A stretch of DNA of 26,154 nucleotides from a virus (taxonomy: Duplodnaviria > Heunggongvirae > Uroviricota > Caudoviricetes). The stretch is taken from the IMG/VR virus record IMGVR_UViG_3300046047_000103; one strand, 5' to 3'. The position numbers and the translations under genes were made by a program. Under the pieces are notes generated by a model. The model was not told the DNA's origin. It saw nothing but the letters and a program-made list of their open reading frames with translations, and did no database searches. This document shows, in pieces, positions 716 through 26,154 of the stretch (its first letter is position 1; the number at the start of each line of letters is the position of its first letter).

Positions 716-739
716 CTCAGATCTGAAACAGATCTGTAT

Positions 740-810
740 GCGTCCATCGTATAATGGTAGTACTTGAGCTTCCAAACCTCATGATCTGGGTTCGATTCCT
801 AGTGGGCGTG
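740..810 (+). tRNA. tRNA-Trp(CCA), divergent (31-39 mismatch; Gly-TCC reading less likely)
   Basis: GCGTCCA/TGGGCGT-G resembles the acceptor of Trp at 3951; standard spacing gives loop TTCCAAA; G73. Confidence 0.7.
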
Positions 811-962
811 CGAGACCAAGCCGTGAGGTGAGGTCATGGTTGACTGCATGATCGCCTACAATGCGTGTGGCTAGACACTGAAGTCATGCAGACAGCGTCG
901 TCACTGGTATCGGCGGTGACGGCAACCGGTTCTCGTGTCCGGCTTACCAAAATACGACCAAT

Positions 963-1035
963 GGGGGCATGGCGCAGCTGGTAGCGCAACTCCTCAGCAA
1001 GGAGTAGGTCGCGGGTCCGAGTCCCGCTGCTTCCA
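963..1035 (+). tRNA. tRNA-Ala(AGC), A34, C33
   Basis: GGGGGCA/TGCTTCC-A with G3.U70; ACTCC-TCAGCAA-GGAGT; T loop TCCGAG. Confidence 0.88.
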
Positions 1036-1113
1036 CTTGGATCCATCAAGACAGGGCGGCGTCAGCAGCATGATGGATCCGCGACACGCCGGTGATTGAG
1101 ATCGGGCTGACTA

Positions 1114-1122
1114 TGTTACAAT
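1114..1122 (+). promoter_or_regulatory. Putative extended -10 promoter TGTTACAAT within the tRNA array
   Basis: TGn-TAnnnT match; TTGAGA at 1096-1101 with a short 15-nt spacer. Confidence 0.5.
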
Positions 1123-1262
1123 GGTATTGTCCACGAAAACGATGGATCACCCGAAGCCTGATAACCTAATCTAAGTCAATCATCTGGATCCATTGTCCAC
1201 AGCGTATGCTCAGGATGATGGCAGGATGTCAAAGTCCCCGCGATGACGATAAACCCGCGAAT

Positions 1263-1343
1263 GCCCCTATGGTAGGAATTGGTAGACACGGTCGACTTAA
1301 AATCGATTGCTTAGGCGTCCCGGTTCGAGTCCGGGTGGGGGTA
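1263..1343 (+). tRNA. tRNA-Leu(TAA), long variable arm
   Basis: GCCCCTA/TGGGGGT-A; GTCGA-CTTAAAA-TCGAT. Confidence 0.92.
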
Positions 1344-1346
1344 CAA

Positions 1347-1366
1347 GGTCGCGCCTAGGCGCGACC
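1347..1366. repeat. Perfect 20-bp palindrome GGTCGCGCCTAGGCGCGACC
   Basis: Read directly; 3 nt after tRNA-Leu. Confidence 0.85.
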
Positions 1367-1447
1367 GCTCATCGGATCCATGTGATTCGATGAGCATGCA
1401 GTACCGTGAGATGATGCGGGTTCGAGTCCGCCTGGCAATCATTAACG

Positions 1448-1536
1448 GTGACGGAGTTGATCTAGTAACTCAATGGCAGAAGCTACTCCATTTATTGTGG
1501 AAATGCGGGTTCGAATCCCGCCTAGTGATCCGTCAC
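1448..1536 (+). pseudogene. Degenerate tRNA-like unit closed by an extra 8-bp stem
   Basis: D-loop-like AACTCAATGGCAGAAG; perfect T arm GCGGG-TTCGAAT-CCCGC; broken acceptor; GTGACGGA/TCCGTCAC outer stem. Confidence 0.5.
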
Positions 1537-1615
1537 AGATGATGCTGTGCGTCAATGGCGCATTGGAATAGATTCAACATTCTAATGGGGCCAGTCATCC
1601 AGCGTCCGCATGAAT

Positions 1616-1689
1616 GCTTTCATAGCCCAATAGGTAGAGGCGATGGATTTAGGATCCATTCAGTGCTGGTTCGAGTCCAGTTGAAAGCA
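1616..1689 (+). tRNA. tRNA-Leu(TAG), short variable loop
   Basis: GCTTTCA/TGAAAGC-A; ATGGA-TTTAGGA-TCCAT. Confidence 0.9.
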
Positions 1690-1692
1690 CAA

Positions 1693-1780
1693 TGTCCGAA
1701 TCAACTTAACGGCAGAGCAGCGGCCGAAACGCCGTGCGCGGGTCATTCCCGGCCTGTAGGGTTCGACTCCCACCGGACAG
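1693..1780 (+). pseudogene. Atypical tRNA-like unit (6-bp acceptor, 6-nt anticodon loop CGAAAC, long variable arm)
   Basis: TGTCCG/CGGACA-G; GCGGC-CGAAAC-GCCGT; TTCGACT T loop with bulged stem. Confidence 0.55.
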
Positions 1781-3199: not shown

Positions 3200-3200
3200 C

Positions 3201-3347: not shown

Positions 3348-3389
3348 CGACGGATGATGTCAGATCTGCTCCACATCGTCCTCACGTAT

Positions 3390-3462: not shown

Positions 3463-3550
3463 CTTCACAGGTTTGGTGGCTAGCGTCGGCGGGTTGATAC
3501 TGCCGACGCCCGTAGCGAGGGAGAGTCCTCGTGCAGATCTGTGGATTCTT

Positions 3551-4278: not shown

Positions 4279-4308
4279 CTAGTGGAACAGATCTGTATCC
4301 ACGATCAT

Positions 4309-6434: not shown

Positions 6435-6599
6435 CTTGTCGGGGAATGGCATAGTCTCCAGCGCACGTCATCCTAGGTGGCGTGGTCAACTGGCGGCAAG
6501 CGCCAGCAGATCTGATCTGTCGCTTCCCGTAAGAACAGCTCCTCTCCCCGACCACATCGTGATATCTTGTACACGACATTGGTATCATGGTGCTTGCAT

Positions 6600-7177: not shown

Positions 7178-7218
7178 CTAAGATCTGCGCTCATGAACGC
7201 AGATCTGCATGCAGTCTT

Positions 7219-9221: not shown

Positions 9222-9377
9222 TATGGATCCATCAGATCTGTAATCATACTGAATGTTAAGATCATTAGTCGTTTTCTTATTCCTTATTCCATTGTAAACG
9301 TTAGATACCTGTTTTTCTTGTTATTTATGTTACCGTCGTGATAATGATTAACGAGTTGCCTTTATAATGATCTTGAA

Positions 9378-9417: not shown

Positions 9418-11040
9418 GTGAGGAAGAGCAAGATCATCAGCATGGCGCTGAGCCTTAACCTGAGCGATGCTATCATTACCCCGTCACCCGGGAAGCGGCA
9501 GCCAAGCGTTACGGAATGGCCACCTTACATCATGAGCACCCTACAGACTCAGACGAGGGATCAGAATAAGATCATAAGGCTTAACAAGGGCTTGGATCCT
9601 GATGACATGACTACTGGTCTCAAGTACTCGGATCCCCTCATCCGCAAGAACATGATCATCCCGTCCAGCGTCAAGGAGAGCAGGGCGAGCGCATGGTTGA
9701 ACACGGCATGGAGTCTGATTAACGACCAGTTAGAGTCATGGCGCTTACTCGCTCCATGGGCTCAACGATCCAGGCTCTTTGACGAAATCCGCGAGGGACC
9801 GAGCCTCGGGTTCAAGGACTTCAGGAGGAAGCACGGGTACGAGTACCTGGACTACCAGCTCTGGTCTAACGTGCAGAGAATGAAGAGTAAGCCAGGACTC
9901 CCCGTCGTGAAGTCAGCGAGAATCTCGTACTCCAAGATGGGAGTACAGTGCTCCGGGGCGCCATGGTACGATAGTAAGACTGGAGTCTTGCACTGGGAAT
10001 GCGTGAACATCGGTCAAGCGCGCCTAGACTTCTCATGGCACGCTCCGTGGATTCGTGCACGATACCCTCGCAGGTCCCTTCAGACCGGACGGATCAGCCG
10101 AGGAACGGTCCAGGCCGTACCCATGACTAGCCACTCATTCAGCGTGGGGTACGGGGAGGACGCGAGCGGTAAGATCCGTGCTAGCATCTCTCGTGAGAAT
10201 AACCGAGTAACATTCAGCCCGGCGACGGATGACGTACGATTCACCTTCACGATTAAGGCTACTCGGCCATCGATACGCAAGCGTGTTAAGGCGGTTGCCG
10301 GGTTTGATATCGGGATGGAGTCGCACGCGGTGATAGCCGGCCGGCGCGTGAGCCTGAACGGCGGAACGAGCAGGCCGCTCACGCTGAGCCGGGAGGGATT
10401 ATCCCTCCAGCGTCACATCATCTCGCTCCAGCTAAAAGAACGGGAGGCTCTCGCGAAGCTCTCGAGGATCATGCAGGATCATGAGCCTGTGGCGAACCCG
10501 AGGCTCGTGGAGGGTGCTATCCATCTTCACGAGAAGCTGGAGGCGCTGAAGGCCGCGATGGACTGGGTCGCCGCGGACTCAGCCGTGAAGCACTGCCGTC
10601 CGGGTGACGTGCTCGTAATGGAGGAGCTCTCATGGTCTGGCGGTGGCGCGGTGAAGTTCCGTCACGGCCGGCAGCAGGCTCGTGTCCAGCACCTCGCCGC
10701 TAGGCGCGGTTTCAGGATGGTTAGGGTGAACCCTGCCGGATCTAGTCACGAGTGTCCATCATGCCACGCCGCGTACGATGCGGATCCGAGGAGTCACGCC
10801 TTCAAGTGCAGCTCTTGCGGGTACGCGGGGGATAAGGATGACGCGGCCGGTTTTATCATCGCACTCCGCGGCTTGGAGAAGCTCCGCAAGAATAACAATT
10901 ACGGGTTGAGCGCCGTGGTACAGACGGTCCGCTCTCGTCGTCCAAGAGGCGACGGTTATGCCCATGCTAGTAACCAGGGTCACCGCGAACGAGCATGCTC
11001 GGTAACGGCGGCGGGTCTAACCAAGAATAACGGTTACTAG
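9418..11040 (+). CDS. tnpB: TnpB/Cas12f-like RuvC RNA-guided nuclease (no adjacent TnpA)
   Basis: 540 aa; RuvC-I AGFDIG, RuvC-II VMEELS, VNPAGSS-ECPSC...CSSC zinc finger, RuvC-III DKDDAA. Confidence 0.85.
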   Translation: MRKSKIISMALSLNLSDAIITPSPGKRQPSVTEWPPYIMSTLQTQTRDQNKIIRLNKGLDPDDMTTGLKYSDPLIRKNMIIPSSVKESRASAWLNTAWSLINDQLESWRLLAPWAQRSRLFDEIREGPSLGFKDFRRKHGYEYLDYQLWSNVQRMKSKPGLPVVKSARISYSKMGVQCSGAPWYDSKTGVLHWECVNIGQARLDFSWHAPWIRARYPRRSLQTGRISRGTVQAVPMTSHSFSVGYGEDASGKIRASISRENNRVTFSPATDDVRFTFTIKATRPSIRKRVKAVAGFDIGMESHAVIAGRRVSLNGGTSRPLTLSREGLSLQRHIISLQLKEREALAKLSRIMQDHEPVANPRLVEGAIHLHEKLEALKAAMDWVAADSAVKHCRPGDVLVMEELSWSGGGAVKFRHGRQQARVQHLAARRGFRMVRVNPAGSSHECPSCHAAYDADPRSHAFKCSSCGYAGDKDDAAGFIIALRGLEKLRKNNNYGLSAVVQTVRSRRPRGDGYAHASNQGHRERACSVTAAGLTKNNGY

Positions 11041-11845: not shown

Positions 11846-12370
11846 ATGCTGGCTAAGCCGAGGAATGGATGGACAGCCCTTGAGACCACGGTTGAGGGCA
11901 AGCCGGTGACGATCGGTCCAATCAGCTACCTGTCTGACGCGCCGGTCATGCTGGCAGAGGCATTCTGGGCGCGGTTCATCGAGGAAGAGCCATTGAACGT
12001 GACGTTCGAGTCAGAGTCTGAAGGATATGTAGATCTGGTTGAGATCGACGATTGCATCTTCGCTATGAAGCATTTTGATCAGAAGGATCCGGACATCCAT
12101 GGGACCCTCATCGGATTCTCTGATATGATACCCGATCTTGCCAGTGAGCTCATTGTGGACATCACTGAGAACATTGACGGCTGGGCCTTGTTCGAAGAGC
12201 TGGGATCTGCAGATCTGGATGAGATCGGTGAACGATCTGCGGAATCTGAACAAGAACGGCGCCGTATCGCCCTGGACGACTGGTGCACTGAGCTGTCCGA
12301 CGTTCTTACCAAGTTCAAGATCGTTGACTCGAAGTTCAACCATGACGTCAGACGGCGCGCACGATGCTGA
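11846..12370 (+). CDS. Acidic hypothetical protein
   Basis: 174-aa ORF; GGAG SD; TGGTACCAT extended -10 at 11762-11770. Confidence 0.75.
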   Translation: MLAKPRNGWTALETTVEGKPVTIGPISYLSDAPVMLAEAFWARFIEEEPLNVTFESESEGYVDLVEIDDCIFAMKHFDQKDPDIHGTLIGFSDMIPDLASELIVDITENIDGWALFEELGSADLDEIGERSAESEQERRRIALDDWCTELSDVLTKFKIVDSKFNHDVRRRARC

Positions 12371-12467: not shown

Positions 12468-12962
12468 ATGGCATTGATACAGCAAAGCATTGACCCAGCG
12501 ACGGGTGAGATCATTGATGACAGTGATGAGTACGGGAATAAGATACCGGTCAGTCTTGACGATGGAGCGCAGGTTCCGTCATACGCTCACGGTGATGACG
12601 CTGGTGCAGATCTGACATCGGTCGAAGATGTCATGATCAATCCCGGGGAGCGGGTTCTTGTCCGCACCGGCGTCCATATCGAACTGGATGCAGATCTGCT
12701 TGCATGGGTGACGCCCCGATCCGGTCTTGCCGTGAAGCACGGCATTACGATCGTGAATGCGCCTGGTCTCATTGACGGCGGGTACCGTGGTGAGATCATG
12801 GTCTGCCTTCTGAATACGAGCGGTGAAGCCTATCAGGTCAAGAAGGGCGATAAGATCGCACAGCTCGTGATCCAGGAGTACATTCACGCTGGATTCAAGG
12901 TGGTTCCAGAACTGCAGGCGAGTGATCGTGAATCAGGGGGATTCGGATCAACGGGAAGATGA
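12468..12962 (+). CDS. dut: Trimeric dUTP diphosphatase
   Basis: All five motifs: DAGADL, PRSGLAVKHGI, GLIDGGYRGEI, KIAQLV, RESGGFGSTG. Confidence 0.97.
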   Translation: MALIQQSIDPATGEIIDDSDEYGNKIPVSLDDGAQVPSYAHGDDAGADLTSVEDVMINPGERVLVRTGVHIELDADLLAWVTPRSGLAVKHGITIVNAPGLIDGGYRGEIMVCLLNTSGEAYQVKKGDKIAQLVIQEYIHAGFKVVPELQASDRESGGFGSTGR

Positions 12963-13082: not shown

Positions 13083-14171
13083 ATGGACAATGGACATGAT
13101 TCTTCGAACTACGTGGGGATAGATCTGTTCAGGAGAACCCTACCCGTGTTCAAGAAGGGTCTTGAGGCCAAGGACAGGCTTGCCAAGCGTGACGGAACGA
13201 TCTCCAGATCTGAGAAGGTCAAGCTCCGTCGCCTGGCGACGCTTGGTGACGCTGCGTACCAGGAGGTTTGCGACGCTTGTGAGTGGATGGTGAATCGCGC
13301 GGTCAGGAAAGAGCTGAACAGGCCAAGATCGTTCCATGTCATCATGAATGACGAAGATCTTAGGCAGGCTGGATTCGAGGCTGTCTTCAAGATGATGAAG
13401 ACCGCTGATCTGAGTAAGATGCACGGATCGGCCGTGAACTATCTTATGCAATGGATATCCACGAATGTGAGCAGGGCTGCCCTCAAGGATGAGGCCGAGT
13501 TCGGCATGAGTTCTAGTAAGCTCGTCATCATGCGGAAGATAGCAGCCGTCCGTGCGAGACTGGGAAAGACCCTTGGCCGGACCGCAACCGACGATGAGGT
13601 CTACGAGTTCTTGCAGTCAGGTGCTGCCGACATGAAGACAATGTACGGTAGATCTGACGGGTCATCAAAGCATCATGCTAATGATAAGATCTCGCTGGAT
13701 ATGATCCATGACCAGTCCAGGCTGAATTCAGGGACGCCGATGAAGTTCGCCGTTACAGACCCGATAGCCATTGACGCTGAGGTCAACTCTGAAGATCTTG
13801 GGGTCTCTGACTATGATGCTGTTCTTGAACCTCCAACCAAGACATTCTGGACAAGCTGGATGAAGCATGTCGGCATCAGTGAGAAGCAGTGGGACGTCAT
13901 TGCCATTCTGACGGGGATCTATGACACCGGACCTGACATCAAGCGTCCGAGACGGGCGGCAAGACTAGTCAATGAGTTCTACATGCTTGTCGGAAGTAAG
14001 ACCGGTGCTATCAACCTGTATGCGAAGCAATGGTCTAAGGATCATGGGCCCGGGCAGTGGGATGTCTTCTCCGACATAGAGCTTTCCGATGAGATACCAA
14101 TCCACGGCGTCGATAAGAACGGAAGTCCGTTATTCAACGTACTTAAGATCAATAGGGAGACGGAAGAATGA
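13083..14171 (+). CDS. Sigma70-family-like RNA polymerase sigma factor (divergent)
   Basis: Region 2-like EDLRQAGFEAVFK...AVNYLMQWISTNVSRA; region 3-like LGKTLGRTATDDEV; region 4.1-like ISEKQWDVIAILTGI. Confidence 0.7.
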   Translation: MDNGHDSSNYVGIDLFRRTLPVFKKGLEAKDRLAKRDGTISRSEKVKLRRLATLGDAAYQEVCDACEWMVNRAVRKELNRPRSFHVIMNDEDLRQAGFEAVFKMMKTADLSKMHGSAVNYLMQWISTNVSRAALKDEAEFGMSSSKLVIMRKIAAVRARLGKTLGRTATDDEVYEFLQSGAADMKTMYGRSDGSSKHHANDKISLDMIHDQSRLNSGTPMKFAVTDPIAIDAEVNSEDLGVSDYDAVLEPPTKTFWTSWMKHVGISEKQWDVIAILTGIYDTGPDIKRPRRAARLVNEFYMLVGSKTGAINLYAKQWSKDHGPGQWDVFSDIELSDEIPIHGVDKNGSPLFNVLKINRETEE

Positions 14172-14725
14172 ACATAATGATGATACTGGCATGGTCCCTG
14201 TTCCTGCTGCTTGGGGCGGTCGTGGCCTTCGCGATCTATGCCGTTCTCAGGGGTAGGAAGGAAGACAGGGAGTATGAGTCTCTCCGACTGCCATCAATTG
14301 CCGGCGATGATGCGTCCGGGGGATTAGACAGCCTGCAATCATTAAGCGTGAACGACGTCGTCAAGGACGATGACCAGCCGGCTGATGACGTGGACGAGAT
14401 CCCTGAGCCGGCAGAACCTGTGTCCGCATTGCCGATGCCAGATGACTACAGATCTGCTCCTCATGATGAAGACAGTCAGTCTTTGCCGATGCCGACGGAC
14501 GACCGTGACGAGCTTGCCCTTCCGCTGCCGTCTAGCGAGCCGGAAGATCAGTCCCTCCCGCTTCCTCCTGACGTGACGGGTGACGGCCAAGACGATGGAC
14601 CGCAGTTTGATCGGCAATTCGATCCGTTGGAGGGATCTGCGGACGATGCAGACGATCCTGTCGGCAAGATCGACAGCATGATCAATGACGACCATGAGAC
14701 TAATCCATTCCAGTTCAACTTATAA
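14168..14725 (+). CDS. N-terminally membrane-anchored acidic Pro-rich protein
   Basis: Hydrophobic N-terminus followed by RGRK; repeated LP[M/L]P motifs; overlaps the sigma stop (ATGA). Confidence 0.75.
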   Translation: MNIMMILAWSLFLLLGAVVAFAIYAVLRGRKEDREYESLRLPSIAGDDASGGLDSLQSLSVNDVVKDDDQPADDVDEIPEPAEPVSALPMPDDYRSAPHDEDSQSLPMPTDDRDELALPLPSSEPEDQSLPLPPDVTGDGQDDGPQFDRQFDPLEGSADDADDPVGKIDSMINDDHETNPFQFNL

Positions 14726-16310: not shown

Positions 16311-18839
16311 ATGTTAGAAGATCAGGATAGATACGTAGCCCGTAGCAACGAGCGTAACGGGTTCGATGGGACGTATAACTCCGGTGACTGGGGCGCATCA
16401 AACAACGGATGGGATGATCATCAGAGCGAGGAGCTCTTGAAGAGTGTCGGATTCTTCATCGGCATCATTGCTGCACTTCTGGTGCTTCCAATTGCTATCG
16501 TTGCTGTCATCTTCTACTGGGCCATGTTCCGGCTGCTCAGATACAGACCATTGTTCACTGCTGCCGTTGATGCTGTCGTCACTCTGATAGCAGTCAAGGT
16601 CTTCAATGATCATGGCGGATTCGCCCCACTGGTAAGCTTCATCAGATCATACAAGTTCGACGGATTCGGATCCATCAGTCCATTCCTGTCATCGATAGCT
16701 CCAACGTTCATCGGAACGCTCTTCATGGTCGGGTTCATCGTCGGTCCATGGATCGCGCTTATCATGGAACTGTTCCAGATCAACAGGATGAAGACAAGTC
16801 CATTCCTCGTCGTGAATGAGGGCGTCGGCCCGAAATGGATGTACCACTTCAGATTCAACATGAGTCCGATTGAGATCATCAAGAAGTCCATGATGATCAG
16901 AAGCATCAAGTCTGATTCCCTGAAGCCGCATCACCGGAACGATCTGATCCCACTCGGTGTCGAGGAGGAGCCCCTCAACGCCCCTGAAGACCCGTCCAAG
17001 ATCAAGAAGGACGTTCTTGTCTGCAGAGCTGAAGACGAGGTCCCCAAGCATACGATGGTGACTGGCGCTGCCGGATCTGGTAAGACCGTCACCCTGAAGT
17101 CCATGATGACGAGGGACATCGATGCTCACAAGACCGTCTTCATGATCGACTGCAAGAAGGATCCGGAGGTCGCCGAGTTCTTATCCCGGCGGGCTAAGGA
17201 GGCAGGGTGCAACTTCTATCACTTCTCCACGGACCTCCCCTACATGATCCAGGGGAACCCGGAGGGTCCATCATCGTACGATCCGTTGTCTTCAGGGTCA
17301 ACATCGAAGAAGGTCGACATGATGCTGAACACTAGGGAGTGGGATACCGCGTCAGCCGTCTATCGTGAGCAAGCGCAAGCGTTCCTGTCCAAGGTGTTCG
17401 CCGTCATGGATGAGGCCAGGAAGTACGGGATACTTGACAAGGTGAAGGCTCTGGACACTACGTACGGTCAGATGTGGACGTTCACCCAGATGCTCGATCC
17501 ACCGATCTTCAACGCAGTCATCGTAGCGATGAACCAGATACCGGAAGCGTCATACATCCGTCAGCAGGCTTCGGAATTGAATGAGCTGCTGTCATCCCCG
17601 CGCCGGGACGCTAAGGTGCAGGCCGCCCAGCACTCCCAGCAGGAGTACCTGTCCACGATGACAGGTCTGATGACAAGCTCGTACGGTAAATGGCTTCGTG
17701 GAGGTGAAAGCGCTGGATCTGGTAAGATCATCAACATCACAGATCTCTCGTCAGAGCCGGGGAACGTGGTCTTGTTCTCACTCGACGCCGCACAGAAGGG
17801 TGATATGGGCTCATTCATGGGATCGATCATCTGTACAGATCTGGCGAACATGACGGAGACGAGGAAGAATCTTGGACAGGACAATCCGCTGTCCGTCTAC
17901 ATCGACGAGTTCCAGTCTCTACCACCGGAATGCGTGAAGTCCATGCTTCAGAAGGCCCGATCTGCGGACGTCGGCCTATCACTCGCATTCCAGTCGCTAG
18001 ATCAGGTGTCCGCGTCCACCGGATCGGATACATACGTGAAATCACTTCTTGACACCTGCTCGAACTTCATCTTCCATGCCGGATCAAATTATGACACCGG
18101 TCTGATGGCGTCCAAGATCATTGGAACTCATAAGAAGAACATCTACATCGTGAACCGTAGGAATGAGACGAAGCTAGGCGCGTTCAACTGGAACAATAAC
18201 AGGGACCTGCAGGTCAACACGGCGCCGTCCGACGAATGGATCGTCGACCCGTCCGAGTTCGCTAAGCTGTCCATGCCGAACAAGCAGAATGGATACAAGT
18301 CTGAGGCGATCATCATCAAGAAGGCATCATCCGATCCAATTGACAAGAAAACTGTCGGAGCGGTCGCGCATAAGACGAAGATGATCCCACCTGACTGCGT
18401 TCTTACCGAGTACTTTGATCCGCATGCGAAGCCGATCGACATTGATGCCCCGATTGATGTCAGAATGAGTCGGGGGTTCGCAAGGGACGCGAAGAAGGCG
18501 ATAGCGGGGTCTCAGATCAAGCCCGTGACCGCACCTGCAAGCATGCCTGTGGACATCCATGACCATGATGATCTGAGGCCCGCGAGACGGACTGTCCGCA
18601 GGATGCCGTCAGCCACTGTCCGCAGGTCTGTGGACGATCATGATGACGCTGCGCTTCCGATGCCAGATCTTGATGGCAGTTCTGAAGACACCGTCCCGAA
18701 GCGCCCGCAGGAGCATAGGACGCGGCATCGTCCTATCCGTGACACGAATGGAAGCAATGGAATGCTTCCAATGCCATCAGATGAGCCCAGGAAGCCCCGT
18801 AGGGGTCTTGGCAGGGGAGCTAGTCTAGACGACTTCTGA
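16311..18839 (+). CDS. VirD4/TraD-like type IV coupling protein
   Basis: N-terminal TM segments; GAAGSGKT; YIDEFQ; KARSADVGLSLAFQSLDQ; disordered C-tail. Confidence 0.88.
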   Translation: MLEDQDRYVARSNERNGFDGTYNSGDWGASNNGWDDHQSEELLKSVGFFIGIIAALLVLPIAIVAVIFYWAMFRLLRYRPLFTAAVDAVVTLIAVKVFNDHGGFAPLVSFIRSYKFDGFGSISPFLSSIAPTFIGTLFMVGFIVGPWIALIMELFQINRMKTSPFLVVNEGVGPKWMYHFRFNMSPIEIIKKSMMIRSIKSDSLKPHHRNDLIPLGVEEEPLNAPEDPSKIKKDVLVCRAEDEVPKHTMVTGAAGSGKTVTLKSMMTRDIDAHKTVFMIDCKKDPEVAEFLSRRAKEAGCNFYHFSTDLPYMIQGNPEGPSSYDPLSSGSTSKKVDMMLNTREWDTASAVYREQAQAFLSKVFAVMDEARKYGILDKVKALDTTYGQMWTFTQMLDPPIFNAVIVAMNQIPEASYIRQQASELNELLSSPRRDAKVQAAQHSQQEYLSTMTGLMTSSYGKWLRGGESAGSGKIINITDLSSEPGNVVLFSLDAAQKGDMGSFMGSIICTDLANMTETRKNLGQDNPLSVYIDEFQSLPPECVKSMLQKARSADVGLSLAFQSLDQVSASTGSDTYVKSLLDTCSNFIFHAGSNYDTGLMASKIIGTHKKNIYIVNRRNETKLGAFNWNNNRDLQVNTAPSDEWIVDPSEFAKLSMPNKQNGYKSEAIIIKKASSDPIDKKTVGAVAHKTKMIPPDCVLTEYFDPHAKPIDIDAPIDVRMSRGFARDAKKAIAGSQIKPVTAPASMPVDIHDHDDLRPARRTVRRMPSATVRRSVDDHDDAALPMPDLDGSSEDTVPKRPQEHRTRHRPIRDTNGSNGMLPMPSDEPRKPRRGLGRGASLDDF

Positions 18840-18903: not shown

Positions 18904-19509
18904 ATGTCAGTTGATGATGTTGCATACAAGTTCGGGGCGTTCCTCCGCAAGACGGTAGATTCGGCTGGGAACGTCATGGATCATTACCATGAACTCTCCG
19001 ACGATGAAGACGATCTGATGGCATCTGACACCACGTCTGATGCAGATCTGTTCCATGCGGATCCGGTGGAAGATGAATCTGATTACGGCAGGCCGGGCAT
19101 GGAGCGGTATATTACGATGTCATTCCCTGACAACAGTCAGATCAAATGGCGAGTGGTCAATGATCAGCGGTCTAATGACGCTCTTGAGGTGGCTACGGAG
19201 GTCTTCCTGAAGAAGGCCGTGAAGTTCGTCAATGATGACAGTAAGGATTATCACGAGCCAACCGTGAAGTCGGCGATCATTGATGACCGGACACGATGCA
19301 TCGTGGTCGTGTACGTTGACAGCAGCGGGTTCAATCATGGGGATGTCTTGTCAATCGTGCAGATCAGCGAGTCTGAGCCTGTTGCGGATAGCGCACTGCT
19401 TCCGAAGGTACCATACAATCCGTACGGGCTGCAATGGCCATGGGACCCTGAAGACCAGTCGAAGTACCATTACGCGGCGAGAAGTATAAGATCATATGGA
19501 AGATCGTGA
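18904..19509 (+). CDS. Hypothetical protein
   Basis: 201-aa ORF with GAGGAG SD, collinear with neighbours. Confidence 0.75.
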   Translation: MSVDDVAYKFGAFLRKTVDSAGNVMDHYHELSDDEDDLMASDTTSDADLFHADPVEDESDYGRPGMERYITMSFPDNSQIKWRVVNDQRSNDALEVATEVFLKKAVKFVNDDSKDYHEPTVKSAIIDDRTRCIVVVYVDSSGFNHGDVLSIVQISESEPVADSALLPKVPYNPYGLQWPWDPEDQSKYHYAARSIRSYGRS

Positions 19510-19518: not shown

Positions 19519-20187
19519 ATGAAGATTGACGATAGTGTGGCCAAGGCTAACACGGTAAGTATCAAGCTCTTAAAGGACGCGGTGAAGAATGCAGGTCTGA
19601 AGCCGAAGGATCTGGCATCCAGGTTCGATGTTGATGAAGACACGGTGCGGTCATGGTTTGACGACACGGTGCCGTACTCAGTCTTCCTGCAGATCTGTAA
19701 GATCACCCACGTGAAGGCTACCGCGATCTTCGATGGGACCAAGGCTGAACTCAAGGCCGAGCGCGCTGCCGCCAAGGCCGATCCATCATCTGCGCCAGCA
19801 CCGGCCGTGAAGCAAGATGCTGCCCCGGCTCCGGCCGAGACCGTTGACAAGAGCGTGACGGTTGATGATGACCCTGAAGAGCTTCCATTCCCTCTTATCA
19901 CCGCTGAAGACGCTGGTCTGAAGAATGCTGACGCGATGCTGGCAGAATGGCCTACGGTCAAGAAGGAGGCCATCGAGCGGCGAGATGATTTGACTGACGC
20001 GCAGAAGCAGAATAAGATCGCCAAGTACCCGAAGCCGGTGAAACTGGCGAATGATAAGGTCGAGTTAGGCTTCAAGACGTACAAGTCCATGCAAGGGTTC
20101 GTGAACGGCGGATACTTGAATGACATCAATGACGTGGTCGCGAAGAGAAGGTATGGCGTGACCGTGACCGTTAAAGATCATGAGTAG
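19519..20187 (+). CDS. XRE/Cro-type HTH domain protein
   Basis: LKDAVKNAGLKPKDLASRFDVDEDTVRSW, then an Ala/Pro linker. Confidence 0.7.
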   Translation: MKIDDSVAKANTVSIKLLKDAVKNAGLKPKDLASRFDVDEDTVRSWFDDTVPYSVFLQICKITHVKATAIFDGTKAELKAERAAAKADPSSAPAPAVKQDAAPAPAETVDKSVTVDDDPEELPFPLITAEDAGLKNADAMLAEWPTVKKEAIERRDDLTDAQKQNKIAKYPKPVKLANDKVELGFKTYKSMQGFVNGGYLNDINDVVAKRRYGVTVTVKDHE

Positions 20188-21574
20188 AAAGGCTATCGAG
20201 TTGACAAGAGGCAAAGATCTATCGCCGGAGTTCTTGGCGAAGATGAGTGATGATGAGATCAGCAACCTGCTGAAGGAGTCATATGCTCACAAGACGCCGG
20301 CGTCTGACAGCAAAGACATCGATCTTGATGACCTGACGAACAGTCTTGAGGAGTCGATCCGTCAGCAGCGGAAGTACATTCAGGATTCATTGAACGACAT
20401 CGTCACCGAGGGCGGGAGCTCGCAGGCGGCTGCCGTCAGACCTCCAAAGACGATGGCCGAAGAGCTGGCCGGCAGATCTGGTCAGGGTGTGATCGTGAAC
20501 AAGACACCGGATGAGATCAATAAGATGACGGACGAGGAGCGGAAGAAGAAGGACGCCGAGGAGCGTGCCAAGATCTTGAAGGAAGCGCTAGACTCCCTCC
20601 ATAAGCTTACCGGTCTGAAGAGCGTGAAGGATCAGGTTCTGGAGTTGCAGGCTACGATAGCGGCCGAGCAGGTCAGGAAGAAGCTGGGCATGCTTGACAA
20701 GAATGATCCGGAATCTGATGACATCTCAGTGCATCTCGCCTTGCTGGGAGCACCCGGAACGGGTAAGACCACCGTTGCCAGGATCTATGCCAAGATTCTC
20801 CGCGGCATCGGACTGTTGAACAAGGGTCAGCTCGTGGAGACGGACAGATCTGGTCTTGTGGCCGAGTACCAGGGTCAGACGGCTCCGAAGACGAATAAGG
20901 TGATCGACTCCGCTCTTGACGGGGTCTTGTTCATTGACGAGGCTTACAATCTGAATACGGGAGATCAGGACACCTTCGGCCAGGAGGCCATCGCGACCCT
21001 CATGAAGCGGATGGAGGATGATCGTGATCGTCTAGTCGTCATCATCGCCGGGTACACGGACGTCACCGAGCACTTCCTGGACTCGAACCCGGGTCTGCGG
21101 TCAAGGTTCGTGGAGAAGATCGAGTTCCCGAACTATATGAATGACGAGCTTGTCGAGATCGCCGTGAGGAAGGCCAAGTCCAAGGGCGTTGAGATCAGTG
21201 ATGCGAACAGGAAGATACTGACCGAGTCATTCACGAAGCTCCGTGACACGGCCGCGTTCGCTAATGGACGGACGGCACGGGTTCTTGTAGACAACGCGAT
21301 GAAGGCGCAGTCCCTCCGGTTCATGGATGAGATGAAGAAGCGTCCGGACATGACCGAGGATGAGCAGAAGAAGTTCTTGGGGTCGCTAGATGACACGGAT
21401 CTGCTTGAGGCCGAATCCAAGACGATCGACATGAGTACTTCAAAGCAGTCGGCGGAGAGCAAGATGATCGATGATAAGGTCAGGATTGCCGAGCTGTTCA
21501 AGCATGCCGGGGAAGATGTCTCCAAGAAGCTGCATTCAGACTCGAATGCGGTCAAAGAGCTGTCCGCAGAGTGA
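20180..21574 (+). CDS. CbbX/SpoVK/EccA-family AAA+ ATPase
   Basis: LTGLKSVKDQV, HLALLGAPGTGKTTVAR, GVLFIDEAY, VVIIAGY, SNPGLRSRF. Confidence 0.93.
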   Translation: MSRKAIELTRGKDLSPEFLAKMSDDEISNLLKESYAHKTPASDSKDIDLDDLTNSLEESIRQQRKYIQDSLNDIVTEGGSSQAAAVRPPKTMAEELAGRSGQGVIVNKTPDEINKMTDEERKKKDAEERAKILKEALDSLHKLTGLKSVKDQVLELQATIAAEQVRKKLGMLDKNDPESDDISVHLALLGAPGTGKTTVARIYAKILRGIGLLNKGQLVETDRSGLVAEYQGQTAPKTNKVIDSALDGVLFIDEAYNLNTGDQDTFGQEAIATLMKRMEDDRDRLVVIIAGYTDVTEHFLDSNPGLRSRFVEKIEFPNYMNDELVEIAVRKAKSKGVEISDANRKILTESFTKLRDTAAFANGRTARVLVDNAMKAQSLRFMDEMKKRPDMTEDEQKKFLGSLDDTDLLEAESKTIDMSTSKQSAESKMIDDKVRIAELFKHAGEDVSKKLHSDSNAVKELSAE

Positions 21575-22263: not shown

Positions 22264-23013
22264 ATGGCCAGGAAGAAACTTACTGATGGTCAGAAGACCA
22301 TACTGCGGAGGCGCCGGAAGATAGCGTCCATGATCTTAAAGGGTGAGACCAATAAAGCGGTCGCGAAAGCACTGTCCGTATCCGCTTCGACGGTGGCGAG
22401 GGATGTCCGGTGGATCAGGGACAATGAGCCGGAGAGACTAGAACGCGGCGCTGGGAAGCAGGACAAGACTACCCCCTCAGACGTCAAAGAAGGGCATTCT
22501 AACGCTCCGTCGACAGATGATGACAGATTGTCAACACCGACGGTGCAAGACGCATCTATCAGTGAATCCGAGCGTTCTAGTGATGGTTCACCGTCCACCG
22601 TCACCGCGGACGAGTCTGTATCCCCTGTAGACACCCCTGAACCCGATCTGGGGAAGACAGTCCCATCTGCCGGCGATGCTGTACACCCTGTAGACAGATC
22701 TGAAGCGCCTGTGGATCAGGTCAATGCCGTTGAAGAACCTGTAGATCACGATGATGTCAAGAAGTGGTGGGAAGACGGATCAAGTACTCTCGAGGATGCC
22801 GCCCTCAGGCGGGGAACATTCTCGCATGCGACCAAGGGCGCCATCAGATCTGTCCGTAAGGAGGCTGAGGATCTGGAACGATTCGATAGCGTGCCGGATG
22901 CGGAGAAGTACACGTACTTCAAGAACAGCGTCCATCAGGCCAGATTCGAGACCATCACGGCGGTCGCACTAGCAGCTATGGTCGCGTTCATCATTCTCTG
23001 GATCGCACTGTAA
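22264..23013 (+). CDS. N-terminal HTH protein with C-terminal membrane anchor
   Basis: RRRKIASMILKGETNKAVAKALSVSASTVARDV; C-terminal VALAAMVAFIILWIAL. Confidence 0.75.
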   Translation: MARKKLTDGQKTILRRRRKIASMILKGETNKAVAKALSVSASTVARDVRWIRDNEPERLERGAGKQDKTTPSDVKEGHSNAPSTDDDRLSTPTVQDASISESERSSDGSPSTVTADESVSPVDTPEPDLGKTVPSAGDAVHPVDRSEAPVDQVNAVEEPVDHDDVKKWWEDGSSTLEDAALRRGTFSHATKGAIRSVRKEAEDLERFDSVPDAEKYTYFKNSVHQARFETITAVALAAMVAFIILWIAL

Positions 23014-23023
23014 GGAAGTAGAT

Positions 23024-23875
23024 TTGAGCGGTGACGATTGGGATGATCTCGGAGCAAATCAGAATGAGGACGATCCGGCAGGCCATACGCTGTTCATGGA
23101 TCGTGGCAACGAGTACTATGACATCGACGCGGCCATAGGCTTCCCGATCTGGGTGGATGAAAGCACGCTTGAGTTCATCTTCTCCATCAGATACAATTCG
23201 CCGGCCTTCAACGATTCCATCTTACAGGAAGATTACCGGATCATGACGCATAAGACCTTCTCTGACCTCATCAAGGAGCTCATCGTCCAGAAGCTTAAGA
23301 TGATGGACAAGAGGCCAGATCTGTATCAGAATTCAAGCGTGAAGGCCAGCGGATACAATCTGAATACGATCAACACGAAGGACATCATAGCGATATCGGA
23401 GTCTATAGGTATAGATCCCGGTAAGATCGATGTTCTCACCCTGGTTGCAGACGTCGTCCAGTCACTGGAGAAGATCGTCGTGAACACGATCCGCAGGCGT
23501 CCCGGCATGAACAGCGGGGAGAAGATGCGATCCATCAAGTTCATGGACGGCCAGCTATGGGATGAGGACGCTCAGTTAAGATGGAGAGCTGTCCATGCGA
23601 AGACGCTGGCGACTATGTACTCGTATGAGAATCTGCCCCGGTCAGTGAGGATCATCGACTCGCTTGACACGTACATCAACAATGAGATCAGATCTGGCCA
23701 CATCAGTGGGGACATGTCCGTCACGTTCATGGACTCGTATCTGAGTGATGACGTGATCACTTACGTTCTTGATCAGCTTGAATGCAAGGACCCCGGCATG
23801 GCCGATGAGATGGTGATCGATAATGCTATCGAAGATGTCCGCACGGGCGAATGGATGGATGATGACCATTGGTGA
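23024..23875 (+). CDS. Hypothetical protein
   Basis: 283-aa ORF; TTG start after AAGGAAG. Confidence 0.7.
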   Translation: MSGDDWDDLGANQNEDDPAGHTLFMDRGNEYYDIDAAIGFPIWVDESTLEFIFSIRYNSPAFNDSILQEDYRIMTHKTFSDLIKELIVQKLKMMDKRPDLYQNSSVKASGYNLNTINTKDIIAISESIGIDPGKIDVLTLVADVVQSLEKIVVNTIRRRPGMNSGEKMRSIKFMDGQLWDEDAQLRWRAVHAKTLATMYSYENLPRSVRIIDSLDTYINNEIRSGHISGDMSVTFMDSYLSDDVITYVLDQLECKDPGMADEMVIDNAIEDVRTGEWMDDDHW

Positions 23876-23933
23876 CAAGGCCATGATCTTTTGATATGAT
23901 GTTCCATGGAAAGATCTTCATCAGGAATGGAGT

Positions 23934-24572
23934 ATGATCTTGAGGAAACATCTGCGTGGGAAGATTGCGGGCATAGCGATCATGGTGGGAGCGCTTGTTC
24001 TGATAGTAGGCGCGTTCACCCATCTGCTCATTGATGCTATCATCATGCTGATCACCATAGCCGGGCTGTCATTAGGAATGGCCATCCCGGTCATGTGGCT
24101 CGCCCGCAAGATCAGGTACAAGAATGCTATCAATGATGTTCGCAACTCGATGAAAGCGCAAGCGAGATCTGTCAGGGAGAACCGGGTTGAGGTGTCTGCC
24201 GAGTCTCCGCTAGCCGCCATGCGGGAGGCCTTGACCGACCATGATCCGTACGCGATCAGCGTCATGGACTCATACCGGAATCTTGAACGCGAAGCAATGG
24301 ACGCTCATGCGTCCCTAGAGCCGATCAGGGAGAAGTATCGGGTCAAGTTCGATGGTCTTGACAGGCTGCTGTCATTCAGGAAAGATCTGATCCGTGACCC
24401 GAAGCTGTACGGAATAGATCTGAAGACTGCGAACACGATGATAGCAGAGTCAACCAGATCTATCGAGCTGTCTATTCTCGACGATACCAGATCATTCACG
24501 GACAGGAAGGTCATGGAAGCCCGAGCTACCGCTGACTACATCAACTCTGACGCGCCATCACCATCGATCTGA
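23934..24572 (+). CDS. Membrane protein (two N-terminal TM helices, helical C-terminus)
   Basis: Hydrophobic residues ~11-55; GGAG SD; TGATATGAT extended -10 at 23892-23900. Confidence 0.75.
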   Translation: MILRKHLRGKIAGIAIMVGALVLIVGAFTHLLIDAIIMLITIAGLSLGMAIPVMWLARKIRYKNAINDVRNSMKAQARSVRENRVEVSAESPLAAMREALTDHDPYAISVMDSYRNLEREAMDAHASLEPIREKYRVKFDGLDRLLSFRKDLIRDPKLYGIDLKTANTMIAESTRSIELSILDDTRSFTDRKVMEARATADYINSDAPSPSI

Positions 24573-24635
24573 TACCATATCGGCGATTCTTACGATATCT
24601 ATGTTATAATGATCTTGTACACACTATGAGGTCAG

Positions 24636-25265
24636 ATGGAGGCAATCATGGATGACGACGCCAAGACTACGAGGATCGATCCGGTGGACAAGTATCAGGG
24701 GCCATCTACAACAGAGCATGATGAGCCTAAGGTCAAGGATGATCCGGCTGCAAGCAATGATCATGACGGATCTGGCAAGAGAATGGATCATAGCGGAAAG
24801 ATCATCATAACGATAAGCGTTCTTGCAATGATCGTGGTGCTTGGAAGAATCGCCTTCATTGATGGTAACCATGGATCTGCTCCCTCTACCCCGGTGACGA
24901 CAAGCTCATCGTATGATGATGCAAGCAAGAAGTCGGAAGCTCCGTCGCCCTCGGAATCATCGAAGACGGTTGATCTCAATGATCTTAAGGGACAGAAATG
25001 GAGCAACGCGAAGAAGATCGTGAAGAGCCGTGGTGGAGATCTGTCTAACGCTCTTGTACTCACCGATGACGGCAAGGAGCCGGTGGTCGACAGTAACTGG
25101 ACGGTGAAGGACATCAGTCAAGATGCGAATGGTCTTATCACGGTCCATCTCACCCATGACAGCAGTGACGTTGACGTGAGCGGCCCGGTCAGCGGTCTTA
25201 AGGACGCTGGAGAGGATGCATGGAACAGCGTGAAGGATGGAACCGTAGGCCTCGGCCAGCACTGA
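24636..25265 (+). CDS. Single-pass membrane protein with possible PASTA-like domain
   Basis: TM IIITISVLAMIVVLG; Ser-rich linker; VDLNDLKGQKWSNAKKIV...DSNWTV; TGTTATAAT at 24602-24610. Confidence 0.7.
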   Translation: MEAIMDDDAKTTRIDPVDKYQGPSTTEHDEPKVKDDPAASNDHDGSGKRMDHSGKIIITISVLAMIVVLGRIAFIDGNHGSAPSTPVTTSSSYDDASKKSEAPSPSESSKTVDLNDLKGQKWSNAKKIVKSRGGDLSNALVLTDDGKEPVVDSNWTVKDISQDANGLITVHLTHDSSDVDVSGPVSGLKDAGEDAWNSVKDGTVGLGQH

Positions 25266-25291
25266 TAGATGCAATGATCAGTAGCCATCTG

Positions 25292-25320
25292 TTGATATCT
25301 TAGTCCTCTTGTGGTACAAT
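25292..25320 (+). promoter_or_regulatory. SigA-type promoter TTGATA-N17-TACAAT with extended TG
   Basis: Upstream of the gyrB-like gene; AAGGAG SD at 25342-25347. Confidence 0.7.
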
Positions 25321-25354
25321 GATTATATAAAGAACATTCATAAGGAGAAGAAGA

Positions 25355-26154
25355 TTGGTTAGCAACGATGAATCGTACACTGCTGACGACATCACGCATC
25401 TTGAATACCCGGTCTCTATATGGAAGAGACCGTCCATGTATCTTGGTGAACGTGGAGAGCAGCAGTCTGTCGGTATCCGTGAGCTCACGGACAATGCGAC
25501 GCAGGAAGGCCTGAGAGGATTCGCAGATCATGTTCGCGTGATCTTCAATGAAGATGAATCCATCATCGTTCAGGACAATGGCCGCGGTCTTCCAGTTGAC
25601 GTGAACAGGAAGACCGGTGAGAATGGCATCATTCTCACAATGGCCACGCTGCATGCAGGTGCTAACTTCAAGTCTGACGTGAAGGCGGGGCAGGCAGGAG
25701 CTGGTCTGAATGGTGTCGGCGCATCCGTCACGAACGCTCTTGCGAAGAGATTTGACGTACTGGTGTACAGATCTGGCAAGGAGTACAGTCTGTCATTCCA
25801 GAATGGATACCCCGGACACTTCAATGGTGAAGACCCTGACGCTGCGTTCAAGAAGGGCAAGGACATCATTGTCCATAAAGATCCCCGCCCTGCTGATGAA
25901 CGCAAGACATGGAAGACAGGGACGTGGATACGGATCTGGTATAATCAGGAGCACTTCCCTGATGATGAGAGCGTGGATCGGGAAGATCTCATCGAGCGCT
26001 TGAAGGGCGTGAGCTACATCATCCCCGGTCTTCATATCGACATTGAAGACAGGATGCGCCATAATGAAGATGGCACGCCGTACTCATACTCGTTCTACTC
26101 GGAGCACGGTATACCTGAGTTCGTTGAGAACATCTCCCCTGACGCTCTTCTTCC
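25355..26154 (+). CDS. gyrB: Type IIA topoisomerase subunit B (GyrB/ParE), 5' part; runs off the window
   Basis: Manual translation from TTG 25355: YTADDITHLE...KRPSMYLG...RELTDNA...VQDNGRGLP...TLHAGANF...GLNGVGASVTNAL; not in the ORF track; GyrB vs ParE unresolved. Confidence 0.92.
   Translation, partial: MVSNDESYTADDITHLEYPVSIWKRPSMYLGERGEQQSVGIRELTDNATQEGLRGFADHVRVIFNEDESIIVQDNGRGLPVDVNRKTGENGIILTMATLHAGANFKSDVKAGQAGAGLNGVGASVTNALAKRFDVLVYRSGKEYSLSFQNGYPGHFNGEDPDAAFKKGKDIIVHKDPRPADERKTWKTGTWIRIWYNQEHFPDDESVDREDLIERLKGVSYIIPGLHIDIEDRMRHNEDGTPYSYSFYSEHGIPEFVENISPDALL

What the first reader, a model, noticed from the sequence alone, without database searches (positions are those of the whole stretch)
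718..25775. Highly iterated palindrome CAGATCTG across the element (HIP1-like)
At least 23 exact copies were found by eye, starting at 718, 729, 3361, 3534, 4288, 6507, 7200, 9233, 12210, 12607, 12691, 13205, 14449, 17836, 19043, 19690, 20473, 20845, 22695, 22845, 23316, 23689 and 25768. About 0.4 would be expected for a random 8-mer in 26 kb. They occur in spacers and in all three coding frames (gCA GAT CTG in dut, tcC AGA TCT G in sigma, CAG ATC TGt in the XRE gene), so protein sequence does not explain them. This is the opposite of the usual palindrome avoidance in mobile elements. Established analogy: cyanobacterial HIP1 (GCGATCGC) also has a GATC core and is associated with methyltransferases. 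Inference: a methylation/repair-driven signature, or binding sites for an element protein such as HU, XRE or an HTH protein. I saw no copy inside tnpB.
Basis: partly seen in the sequence, partly recalled or inferred. Interest (0 to 1): 0.7.

Follow-up and report, generated by a model that had tools for sequence, protein, structure and literature searches.

The report
Iterated CAGATCTG palindrome in huge phage
A roughly 350-kb phage from bioreactor sludge has written the 8-letter palindrome CAGATCTG into its DNA about once per 1.2-1.4 kb, in genes and spacers alike, which its relatives and sampled bacteria do not do; this resembles the unexplained HIP1 word of cyanobacteria, and what reads or writes it is still unknown.

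Summary
All 23 copies lie at the stated coordinates. Dinucleotide shuffles give 1.2, and I count 34 copies in the 47.5 kb of this phage that I could reach.

- 24 against 2.2 in codon-preserving synonymous shuffles (0 of 500 reach it).
- 34 against 12.6 if the two half-sites on the GATC-rich background were independent (P = 4e-7).

The word is exactly 8 bp, nested as GATC < AGATCT < CAGATCTG. It fills 39% of the places the proteins allow.

It is lineage-specific. The nearest relative, a 420-kb phage at 66% amino-acid identity, has 21 copies in 420 kb and none at 23 orthologous positions. In 401 sampled Actinomycetota the densest genome is about 25-fold sparser. A recently inserted TnpB element carries neither the word nor its half-sites.

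No reader or writer was found. The relative has no DNA methyltransferase, TET, Vsr or DpdA. Our phage's remaining ~300 kb and its host were out of reach.

Best reading: a HIP-type DNA-level word recognised by a dimeric sequence-specific protein, most likely linked to methylation. That mechanism is inferred, not shown.

This scan had already noted the same word on another assembly of essentially the same phage, and other HIP-like words on unrelated genomes.

The parts
718..725 (.). CAGATCTG copy, spacer 2 nt after tRNA-Tyr; first of a pair 11 bp apart
729..736 (.). CAGATCTG copy, spacer 4 nt before tRNA-Trp
3361..3368 (.). copy in tRNA spacer (Lys/Gln)
3534..3541 (.). copy in tRNA spacer, 10 nt before tRNA-Arg
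4288..4295 (.). copy in tRNA spacer (Thr/Ile)
6507..6514 (.). copy in tRNA spacer (Glu/Gly)
7200..7207 (.). copy in tRNA spacer (Met/Val)
9233..9240 (.). copy in the AT-rich divergent intergenic region between the FtsK-like gene and tnpB
12210..12217 (.). copy in a 174-aa ORF without a G001 homologue, read gCA-GAT-CTG (ADL)
12607..12614 (.). copy in dUTPase, ADL; the peptide is conserved in relatives, so the word was made by silent change (G001 has GCGGATCTG)
12691..12698 (.). copy in dUTPase, ADL at a variable position (DDQ, TGM, AGK in relatives)
13205..13212 (.). copy in a 362-aa ORF, tcC-AGA-TCT-Gag (SRSE)
14449..14456 (.). copy in a 185-aa ORF, YRSA, variable position
17836..17843 (.). 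copy in the VirD4/TraG-like coupling protein, TDL; xDL is conserved in all four relatives
19043..19050 (.). copy in a 201-aa ORF, ADL
19690..19697 (.). copy in a 222-aa ORF, the only one read CAG-ATC-TGt (QIC; QLC in G001)
20473..20480 (.). copy in the AAA ATPase, GRSG
20845..20852 (.). copy in the AAA ATPase, DRSG; the peptide is invariant in four relatives and G001 spells it GATCGGTCTGGA, so the word arose by silent change
22695..22702 (.). copy in the 249-aa HTH protein, DRSE
22845..22852 (.). copy in the 249-aa HTH protein, IRSV
23316..23323 (.). copy in a 283-aa ORF, PDL (G001: CCCGATCTT, same peptide)
23689..23696 (.). copy in a 283-aa ORF, IRSG
25768..25775 (.). copy in GyrB, YRSG (YRND in G001)
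9418..11040 (+). Internal control: TnpB gene of a recently arrived element. GC 0.585, GATC 8/kb, and no copy of the word or of its half-sites CAGATC/GATCTG, where about 6 half-sites would be expected from its neighbours

Best explanation
CAGATCTG is a HIP-type word: an exact 8-bp palindrome recognised as a whole by a dimeric sequence-specific protein, and accumulated at the DNA level in the resident DNA of this one huge-phage lineage. Shown: the excess is independent of coding and composition. It is nested (GATC 1.5x, AGATCT 3.6x, CAGATCTG 10.9x over codon-preserving shuffles), and the two halves are cooperative. It was written by silent changes where a compatible peptide already existed, by replacements at variable positions, and more densely in spacers. 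It is absent from relatives and from a newly arrived insertion element, and its density is near one per kb. Inferred: by analogy with HIP1 and the alternate HIPs, which track methyltransferases of the nested hexamer, the most likely agent is a methyltransferase-type enzyme for AGATCT or the full octamer, encoded by the phage or its host. Either methylation-coupled repair bias or selection for methylated or marked sites would then ratchet the copy number up to about one per kb.
For: The copies are exact and far beyond chance. Palindromic cooperativity: 34 against 12.6. C flanks AGATCT on both sides in 34 of 93 sites, with no preference one base further out. 24 of 61 permissible peptide positions are filled. 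Density is 0.66/kb in genes, about 1.3/kb in non-tRNA spacers and 0 in tRNA genes. At 23 orthologous positions G001 never has the word. Outgroups show silent changes on conserved ADL, DRSG and xDL peptides and replacements at variable positions. G001 shows the same hierarchy faintly (1.3x, 1.8x, 2.5x) and L286 has AGATCT at 3.2x, so the pressure centres on AGATCT and varies by lineage. The TnpB element, and its remnant in G001, have foreign composition and lack the signature. Density matches the roughly 1 per kb of HIPs, and Elhai 2015 (PMC4390886) links each HIP to a methyltransferase of the nested word. G001, which lacks the word, also lacks methyltransferases.
Against: No methyltransferase, Vsr-type endonuclease or methylation signal has been seen for this phage. 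Only about 47.5 of 350 kb could be read, and none of the earlier notes on a further ~57 kb mentions a methyltransferase. G001 and L286 show GATC/AGATCT excess, and G001 at least has no recognisable methyltransferase, so any writer there must be host-encoded or of an unknown type. One-mismatch neighbours are not depleted, as a pure repair ratchet might predict (small numbers). For HIP1 itself, Xu et al. 2018 (PMC5861425) favour selection and a structural role over biased repair.
Confidence: 0.38

Rival explanations
1. The copies are binding or loading sites for a phage-encoded dimeric DNA-binding protein that organises, compacts, segregates or marks the 350-kb genome, in the way Noc, ParB and KorB use dispersed palindromes. 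Selection on each copy maintains them, and no methylation is involved.
For: The word is an exact, cooperative palindrome. The phage encodes a clade-specific ParB-family protein of 589 aa with a ParB N-domain, a nearly invariant HTH-like stretch and a helical C-terminus. Its weak structural matches are all to ParB, Noc and KorB. It also encodes HU, a fast-evolving HTH protein (33% identity to G001, against 60-77% for neighbouring genes) and FtsK-like and TraG-like DNA motors. Xu et al. 2018 argue for selection and a nucleoid-structure role for HIP1.
Against: Known ParB, Noc and KorB sites are 13-16 bp and number in the tens, not about 250 eight-base sites. The ParB-like protein is also present in relatives that lack the word. 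Spacing is close to random (CV 0.8). Selection on hundreds of individually weak sites is hard to sustain. No binding data exist, and the model of the candidate is poor (pLDDT 60).
Confidence: 0.28
2. The word is a host imprint. The unknown host genome is itself saturated with CAGATCTG through its own methylation, repair or selection, and the phage has drifted towards host usage, as cyanophages can carry HIP1.
For: The word is lineage-specific, as expected if hosts differ. GATC content across the clade swings from 0 to 14 per kb, which looks host-dependent. G001 has GATC and AGATCT excess without any methyltransferase of its own. Subcluster B3 mycobacteriophages show an unexplained genome-wide GATC and GGATCC excess (PMC4841201).
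Against: The TnpB family, abundant elsewhere in the same community, has ordinary GATC content and no half-sites. None of 401 evenly sampled Actinomycetota, or 4 genomes of other phyla, exceeds about 0.03 copies per kb. The partial scan of species genomes for clustered copies found only tandem repeats. A phage with 44 or more tRNAs is relatively free of host codon usage.
Confidence: 0.15
3. The word, or its AGATCT/GATC core, is the target of a sequence-directed sugar hypermodification made by the conserved ParB-like plus TAGT glycosyltransferase module. Copies accumulate because denser modification protects the DNA better.
For: A TET-associated glycosyltransferase (Pfam TAGT E 1.6e-22; PHROG glucosyl-HMC glucosyltransferase E 6e-31) sits beside the ParB-like gene and is 75-80% identical in G001.
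Against: The relative has no TET/JBP, C5-methyltransferase, hydroxymethylase or DpdA to make a substrate base. The unassigned part of the ParB-like protein is all-helical, so it is not a dioxygenase or Rossmann fold. The module is equally present in G001, which lacks the word.
Confidence: 0.1
4. It is a compositional or coding artefact: very high GATC content and favoured codons (CAG, ATC, GAT, CTG) generate the octamer without any pressure on the word itself.
For: GATC is 3.6x enriched and CA is the commonest dinucleotide before GATC. A maximal-order Markov model expects 17 of the 23. In another phage (G005) the same octamer is explained by half-site abundance alone, and in G002 by a pentapeptide-repeat gene.
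Against: Codon-preserving shuffles expect 2.2 against 24 observed. Independent half-sites expect 12.6 against 34. The commonest frame uses the non-preferred codons AGA and TCT. Ten copies lie in non-coding DNA. The equally GATC-rich L286 has one copy.
Confidence: 0.03

Closest known systems
HIP1 (GCGATCGC) and alternate highly iterated palindromes of cyanobacteria (Elhai 2015, PMC4390886; Xu, Lawrence and Durand 2018, PMC5861425)
   Same: It is an octameric palindrome built as a hexameric type II-like site plus one flanking base pair, with a GATC core. Density is about one per kb. It occurs in genes in all frames and in spacers, is far above Markov and codon expectations, and is lineage-specific. 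The mechanism is unresolved, between methylation-linked repair and selection.
   Different: It sits on a phage rather than a cyanobacterial chromosome. The core is AGATCT, not CGATCG. No cognate methyltransferase has been identified. Site conservation between genomes could not be tested, and neither could periodicity at the 10-90 kb scale with only 47.5 kb in hand.
Genome-wide GATC (4x) and GGATCC (>4x) excess in subcluster B3 mycobacteriophages (PMC4841201)
   Same: A phage lineage carries a genome-wide excess of GATC and of a nested longer palindrome that its sister lineages lack. This runs against the usual avoidance and is unexplained.
   Different: There the word is a hexamer (GGATCC) in 68-kb phages. 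Here an octamer stands out above its hexamer, in a 350-kb phage. No octamer analysis was reported there, and I could not re-analyse those genomes.
Noc-NBS, ParB-parS and KorB-OB dispersed palindromic binding sites
   Same: These are palindromic words scattered over a replicon and read by a ParB-family dimer, and this phage encodes a ParB-family protein.
   Different: Those sites are 13-16 bp and number about 10-70 per replicon. Here there are about 250 expected copies of an 8-bp word, and no binding has been shown.
DNA uptake sequences (Neisseria DUS, Haemophilus USS)
   Same: They occur about once per kb, are written through coding sequence in all frames, and accumulate through a molecular drive that acts on DNA rather than on gene products (from my own knowledge).
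   Different: They are non-palindromic, chromosomal, and tied to natural transformation. Nothing comparable is known for this phage.

Membership tests
Highly iterated palindromes (HIP1-type) | Octameric palindrome many-fold above expectation from composition and Markov models | tested here: met
   23 against 1.2. 26 against 2.9 under order-3 Markov. 34 against 9.9 under order-4 Markov.
Highly iterated palindromes (HIP1-type) | Excess not explained by protein sequence or codon usage; present in all frames and between genes | tested here: met
   24 against 2.2 in synonymous shuffles. Frame counts 1/6/8 in the window. 10 of 34 copies are non-coding.
Highly iterated palindromes (HIP1-type) | Dispersed over the whole replicon at roughly one per kb | tested here: inconclusive
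   0.72-0.88 per kb, evenly spread over 47.5 contiguous kb. An unverified note reports a similar density on a neighbouring stretch.
Highly iterated palindromes (HIP1-type) | A methyltransferase specific for the word or its nested hexamer is present in the genome | not testable with these tools
   Most of the phage genome and the host are not available. The word-poor relative G001 has none of PF02086, PF01555 or PF00145.
Highly iterated palindromes (HIP1-type) | Sites conserved between related genomes beyond neutral expectation (Xu et al. 2018) | not testable with these tools
   The nearest relative is at 66% amino-acid identity and has the word at 0 of 23 orthologous positions. Other samples hold the identical strain.
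Highly iterated palindromes (HIP1-type) | One-base deviants biased to the outer positions (Elhai 2015) | tested here: inconclusive
   Deviants by position: 19 and 21 at positions 1 and 2, against 1 and 9 at positions 3 and 4. This is largely a consequence of GATC richness, and the numbers are small.
ParB/Noc/KorB binding-site sets | A ParB-family protein is encoded on the replicon | tested here: met
   589-aa protein: ParB_N E 1.9e-4 (below the Pfam cut-off), PHROG ParB-like E 2e-14, and weak Foldseek hits to ParB, Noc and KorB.
ParB/Noc/KorB binding-site sets | 13-16 bp palindromic site present in tens of copies | tested here: not met
   The word is exactly 8 bp with no flank preference, and density implies about 250 copies per genome.
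ParB/Noc/KorB binding-site sets | Specific binding of the protein to the word | not testable with these tools
   Needs EMSA, DAP-seq or ChIP.
TET/TAGT cytosine hypermodification pathway | C5-methyltransferase plus TET/JBP dioxygenase together with the glycosyltransferase | tested here: not met
   TAGT is present, but PF00145 and PF12851 are not found in the syntenic relative G001. Our own genome is only partly read.

The most novel reading that the evidence does not exclude
The phage itself encodes a reader or writer, for example its clade-specific ParB-family protein with or without the adjacent glycosyltransferase, or an unseen methyltransferase. That protein uses about 250 copies of CAGATCTG as a genome-wide 'self' mark or loading site on a 350-kb virus chromosome. 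This would be a virus-borne counterpart of HIP1 and would make HIP function experimentally tractable.
Probability: 0.2. Interest if true: 0.8.

Novelty: new variant of a known kind. Interest (0 to 1): 0.6.

Why it matters
Phages normally purge short palindromes because these are restriction targets. A phage that does the opposite, filling about 40% of all permissible positions with one octamer, must be under a strong DNA-level force.

HIP1 has lacked an agreed function for some 30 years. One reason is that it sits in large chromosomes together with several methyltransferases.

A 350-kb phage has two useful features for this problem. A sister phage lacks the word, and a word-free insertion element serves as an internal clock. 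Together they narrow the search for the responsible protein, and they let 'biased repair' and 'selected binding site' be told apart.

The result also shows that GATC-centred words swing from complete avoidance to a 4-fold excess within one huge-phage clade. That is a usable marker of host or defence history.

Tried and rejected
1. Paired-copy scan of IMG/VR. The motif-rich hits were not parallels:
- G003, G004 and G006 are tandem arrays.
- G002 is a pentapeptide-repeat gene, GCA-GAT-CTG-AGT-AAT.
- G005 has an asymmetric word, ACAGATCY, whose abundance alone explains its 53 palindromes.

2. Triple-copy scan of the species genomes. The hits are short intergenic tandem repeats of period 11-37 bp, many of them in high-GC Actinomycetota, beside unrelated housekeeping genes. 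This is an artefact of the pattern and says nothing about the host or function.

3. TnpB as a host pointer. No close relative was found in the species genomes.

4. The ligase look-alike search gave only a faint lean to Actinomycetota.

5. 'Alternate word' GGACGTCC in relative L286. It scores 5 against 2.1 in genes, with two copies inside a local duplication, so I rejected it.

6. Metagenome scan with the coupling-protein alignment. It returned only one extra relative.

7. Walking along the JGI contig stopped at record position ~106.7 kb. Identical Logan contigs added 4.7 kb.

8. A helicase seed from G001 found no orthologue on our contig.

9. Laying contigs of other samples on the window. They hold the same strain, so there are no polymorphisms at the sites. 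Parts without cover say nothing.

10. Sigma-70 promoter-like and terminator-like matches do not coincide with copies.

11. GATC spacing shows codon periodicity only and no clear helical phasing.

12. The structure of the ParB-like protein is of low confidence (pLDDT 60), and Foldseek found no match at E <= 0.001.

13. No accession numbers for B3 mycobacteriophages could be recovered, so that precedent was not re-analysed.

Full report
**What is there**

Dinucleotide-preserving shuffles give a mean of 1.2 and a maximum of 6.

The window is part of a 349,703-bp metagenomic contig from bioreactor sludge. It carries:
- 44 tRNA genes in its first 8.3 kb.
- A solo TnpB, a dUTPase, HU, a VirB11-like ATPase, a VirD4/TraG-like coupling protein, an AAA ATPase, an HTH protein and GyrB.

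Its nearest relative in IMG/VR is a 419,707-bp record with direct terminal repeats, rated complete (G001). The element is therefore a huge phage. Using the JGI contig and 100%-identical Logan contigs I assembled 47.5 kb of it. That stretch holds 34 copies, or 0.72 per kb.

**Is it more than composition?**

The background is unusual. GATC occurs 373 times in the window (14.3 per kb, about 3.6 times expectation), and CAGATC is the most over-represented hexamer. The excess still stands under every correction I tried:

| Null model | Observed | Expected |
|---|---|---|
| Order-3 Markov, 33.9 kb | 26 | 2.9 |
| Order-4 Markov, 47.5 kb | 34 | 9.9 |
| Synonymous-codon shuffles, window genes | 15 | 1.56 (0 of 1000 reach it) |
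| Synonymous-codon shuffles, 47.5 kb | 24 | 2.2 (0 of 500 reach it) |
| Independent half-sites given all GATC | 34 | 12.6 (P = 4e-7) |

The maximal-order Markov figure of 17 is not a valid refutation, because the enriched 7-mers are part of the signal.

The enrichment is nested. Over codon-preserving shuffles, GATC is 1.5x, AGATCT 3.6x and CAGATCTG 10.9x. C flanks AGATCT on both sides in 34 of 93 cases. There is no preference one base further out and no extended consensus. The word is exactly eight bases.

**How it sits in the genome**

- In the window's genes the commonest reading is xxC-AGA-TCT-Gxx (8 copies), which uses codons that are not preferred. Next comes xCA-GAT-CTG (6), then CAG-ATC-TGx (1).
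- Of 61 peptide positions in the 47.5 kb that could be spelled with the word, 24 are (39%). Codon usage predicts a few percent.
- Density is 0.66 per kb in genes, about 1.3 per kb in non-tRNA spacers and zero in tRNA genes.
- Spacing is close to random (CV 0.8).
- Copies do not coincide with promoter-like or terminator-like matches.

**It is specific to this lineage**

- G001 (66% identity in the coupling protein) has 21 copies in 420 kb. It has the word at none of 23 orthologous positions.
- Four outgroups show how the copies arose. Conserved compatible peptides (ADL in dUTPase, DRSG in the AAA ATPase, xDL in the coupling protein) were re-spelled silently. The other copies sit at positions that vary in every lineage.
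- G001 shows the same hierarchy only faintly (1.3x, 1.8x, 2.5x). L286 has AGATCT at 3.2x but a single octamer. L157 and L285 show nothing.
- More distant huge relatives range from no GATC at all in 21.9 kb (L287) to 7 per kb.
- Ordinary bacterial genomes hold 0.01-0.03 copies per kb. None of 401 evenly sampled Actinomycetota is enriched. Six of those genomes (G131, G012, G059, G347, G329, G099) are unpublished. The negative statement rests on them only marginally, and none of them stands out.

**An internal clock**

- The TnpB gene has GC 0.585 and half the local GATC density. It has no copy of the word or of either half-site, where about six half-sites would be expected.
- G001 keeps a 270-nt remnant of the same element at another place, again with foreign composition.
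- In one sample this segment draws 10-20 times the backbone depth from ~88%-similar contigs, so the family is common elsewhere in the community.
- Newly arrived DNA thus lacks the signature. That fits slow accumulation in resident phage DNA. It argues, weakly, against a signature shared by all DNA in that host.

**Search for a reader or writer**

- G001 has no D12, N6/N4 or C5 methyltransferase, no TET/JBP, no thymidylate-synthase-type hydroxymethylase, no DpdA/TGT, and only a sub-threshold Vsr match.
- About 16 kb beyond the window, our phage and G001 share a ParB-family gene and a TET-associated glycosyltransferase.
- The ParB-like family is confined to this clade. Its unassigned part is helical, with an HTH-like invariant stretch. 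Its only structural matches are weak ones to ParB, Noc and KorB. It is a candidate reader and no more.
- I could not read the rest of our contig, find the host, or find a diverged strain.

**Comparison with what is known**

- The closest match is HIP1 and the alternate HIPs. They share the octamer-around-a-hexamer architecture with a GATC core, the density near one per kb, and the presence in all frames and spacers. For them Elhai (PMC4390886) proposes methylation-coupled repair. Xu et al. (PMC5861425) argue instead for selection and a nucleoid-structure role.
- A phage precedent exists for shorter words: subcluster B3 mycobacteriophages carry GATC and GGATCC at about four times expectation genome-wide, unexplained (PMC4841201).
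- I found no paper that reports this octamer as an iterated word, or a HIP-type octamer on a phage outside cyanobacterial systems.
- Earlier notes of this scan record the same word on another assembly of essentially the same phage (e1-5356637). They also record other HIP-like words elsewhere, so the kind of finding is recurring.

**Verdict**

The feature is real, strong and lineage-specific. I file it as a new variant of the HIP kind.

| Reading | Weight |
|---|---|
| Methylation-linked word (best) | 0.38 |
| Selected binding sites for a phage protein | 0.28 |
| Host imprint | 0.15 |
| Target for sugar hypermodification | 0.10 |
| Compositional artefact | 0.03 |

All mechanistic steps are inferred. 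What is shown is the statistics, the nesting, the mode of origin, and the absence of the word from relatives and from the insertion element.

Noticed in passing
window 9418-11040; right end 11018-11047: The TnpB element is compositionally foreign. A 30-nt exact inverted copy of its right end lies about 36.5 kb downstream, at the end of contig L161, which suggests a second element. G001 keeps only a 270-nt remnant at a non-syntenic site. Related copies are 10-20 times more abundant than the phage in one sample.
   Followed up: partly
L161:7825-10909 (about 16-19 kb beyond the window end): A ParB-family 589-aa protein and a TET-associated glycosyltransferase form a conserved pair in the clade. 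The relative has no TET, methyltransferase, hydroxymethylase or DpdA, so the glycosyltransferase has no obvious substrate base.
   Followed up: partly
window 8292-9218, 15091-18839; G001 via L140 and L145: This phage carries type IV secretion-like genes: a VirB11-like ATPase, a VirD4/TraG-like coupling protein and an FtsK-like ATPase. G001 additionally has a TrbL/VirB6-like protein and a second T2SSE ATPase.
   Followed up: no
L149:10701-13508 (G001): The relative encodes a full-length Cas3. Its most over-represented words (CAACCCCGCAACGCG, GGGGAATAC) belong to a GC-rich repeat, possibly a CRISPR repeat or the gene-end palindromes noted earlier in this scan.
   Followed up: no
L287 (IMGVR_UViG_3300045988_179014, 345 kb): This distant huge relative has no GATC at all in 21.9 kb, where about 70 would be expected. 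That is complete avoidance, the opposite extreme to our phage.
   Followed up: no
window and downstream, e.g. 8519, 13633, 14467, 15392, 16789: The asymmetric octamer TGAAGACA occurs 26 times in 47.5 kb against about 6.7 expected, with a 17:9 strand bias, mostly inside genes in several frames.
   Followed up: no
G005 (IMGVR_UViG_3300035193_000067, 163 kb): An unrelated GC-42% phage is rich in the asymmetric word ACAGATCY (AGGATCTG 97, ACAGATCT 74, ACAGATCC 64 copies). Its 53 CAGATCTG copies follow from that alone.
   Followed up: partly
window-wide: AAGATCTT is also enriched (8 against 1.4 under the codon null; 2.9x in G001). GATC pairs show a peak at a distance of 9 bp in both phages.
   Followed up: no
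window 230-8277: 44 tRNA genes covering all amino acids lie in 8 kb. Seven copies of the word sit in their spacers, five of them 4-22 nt upstream of a tRNA 5' end. I did not test this for significance.
   Followed up: no
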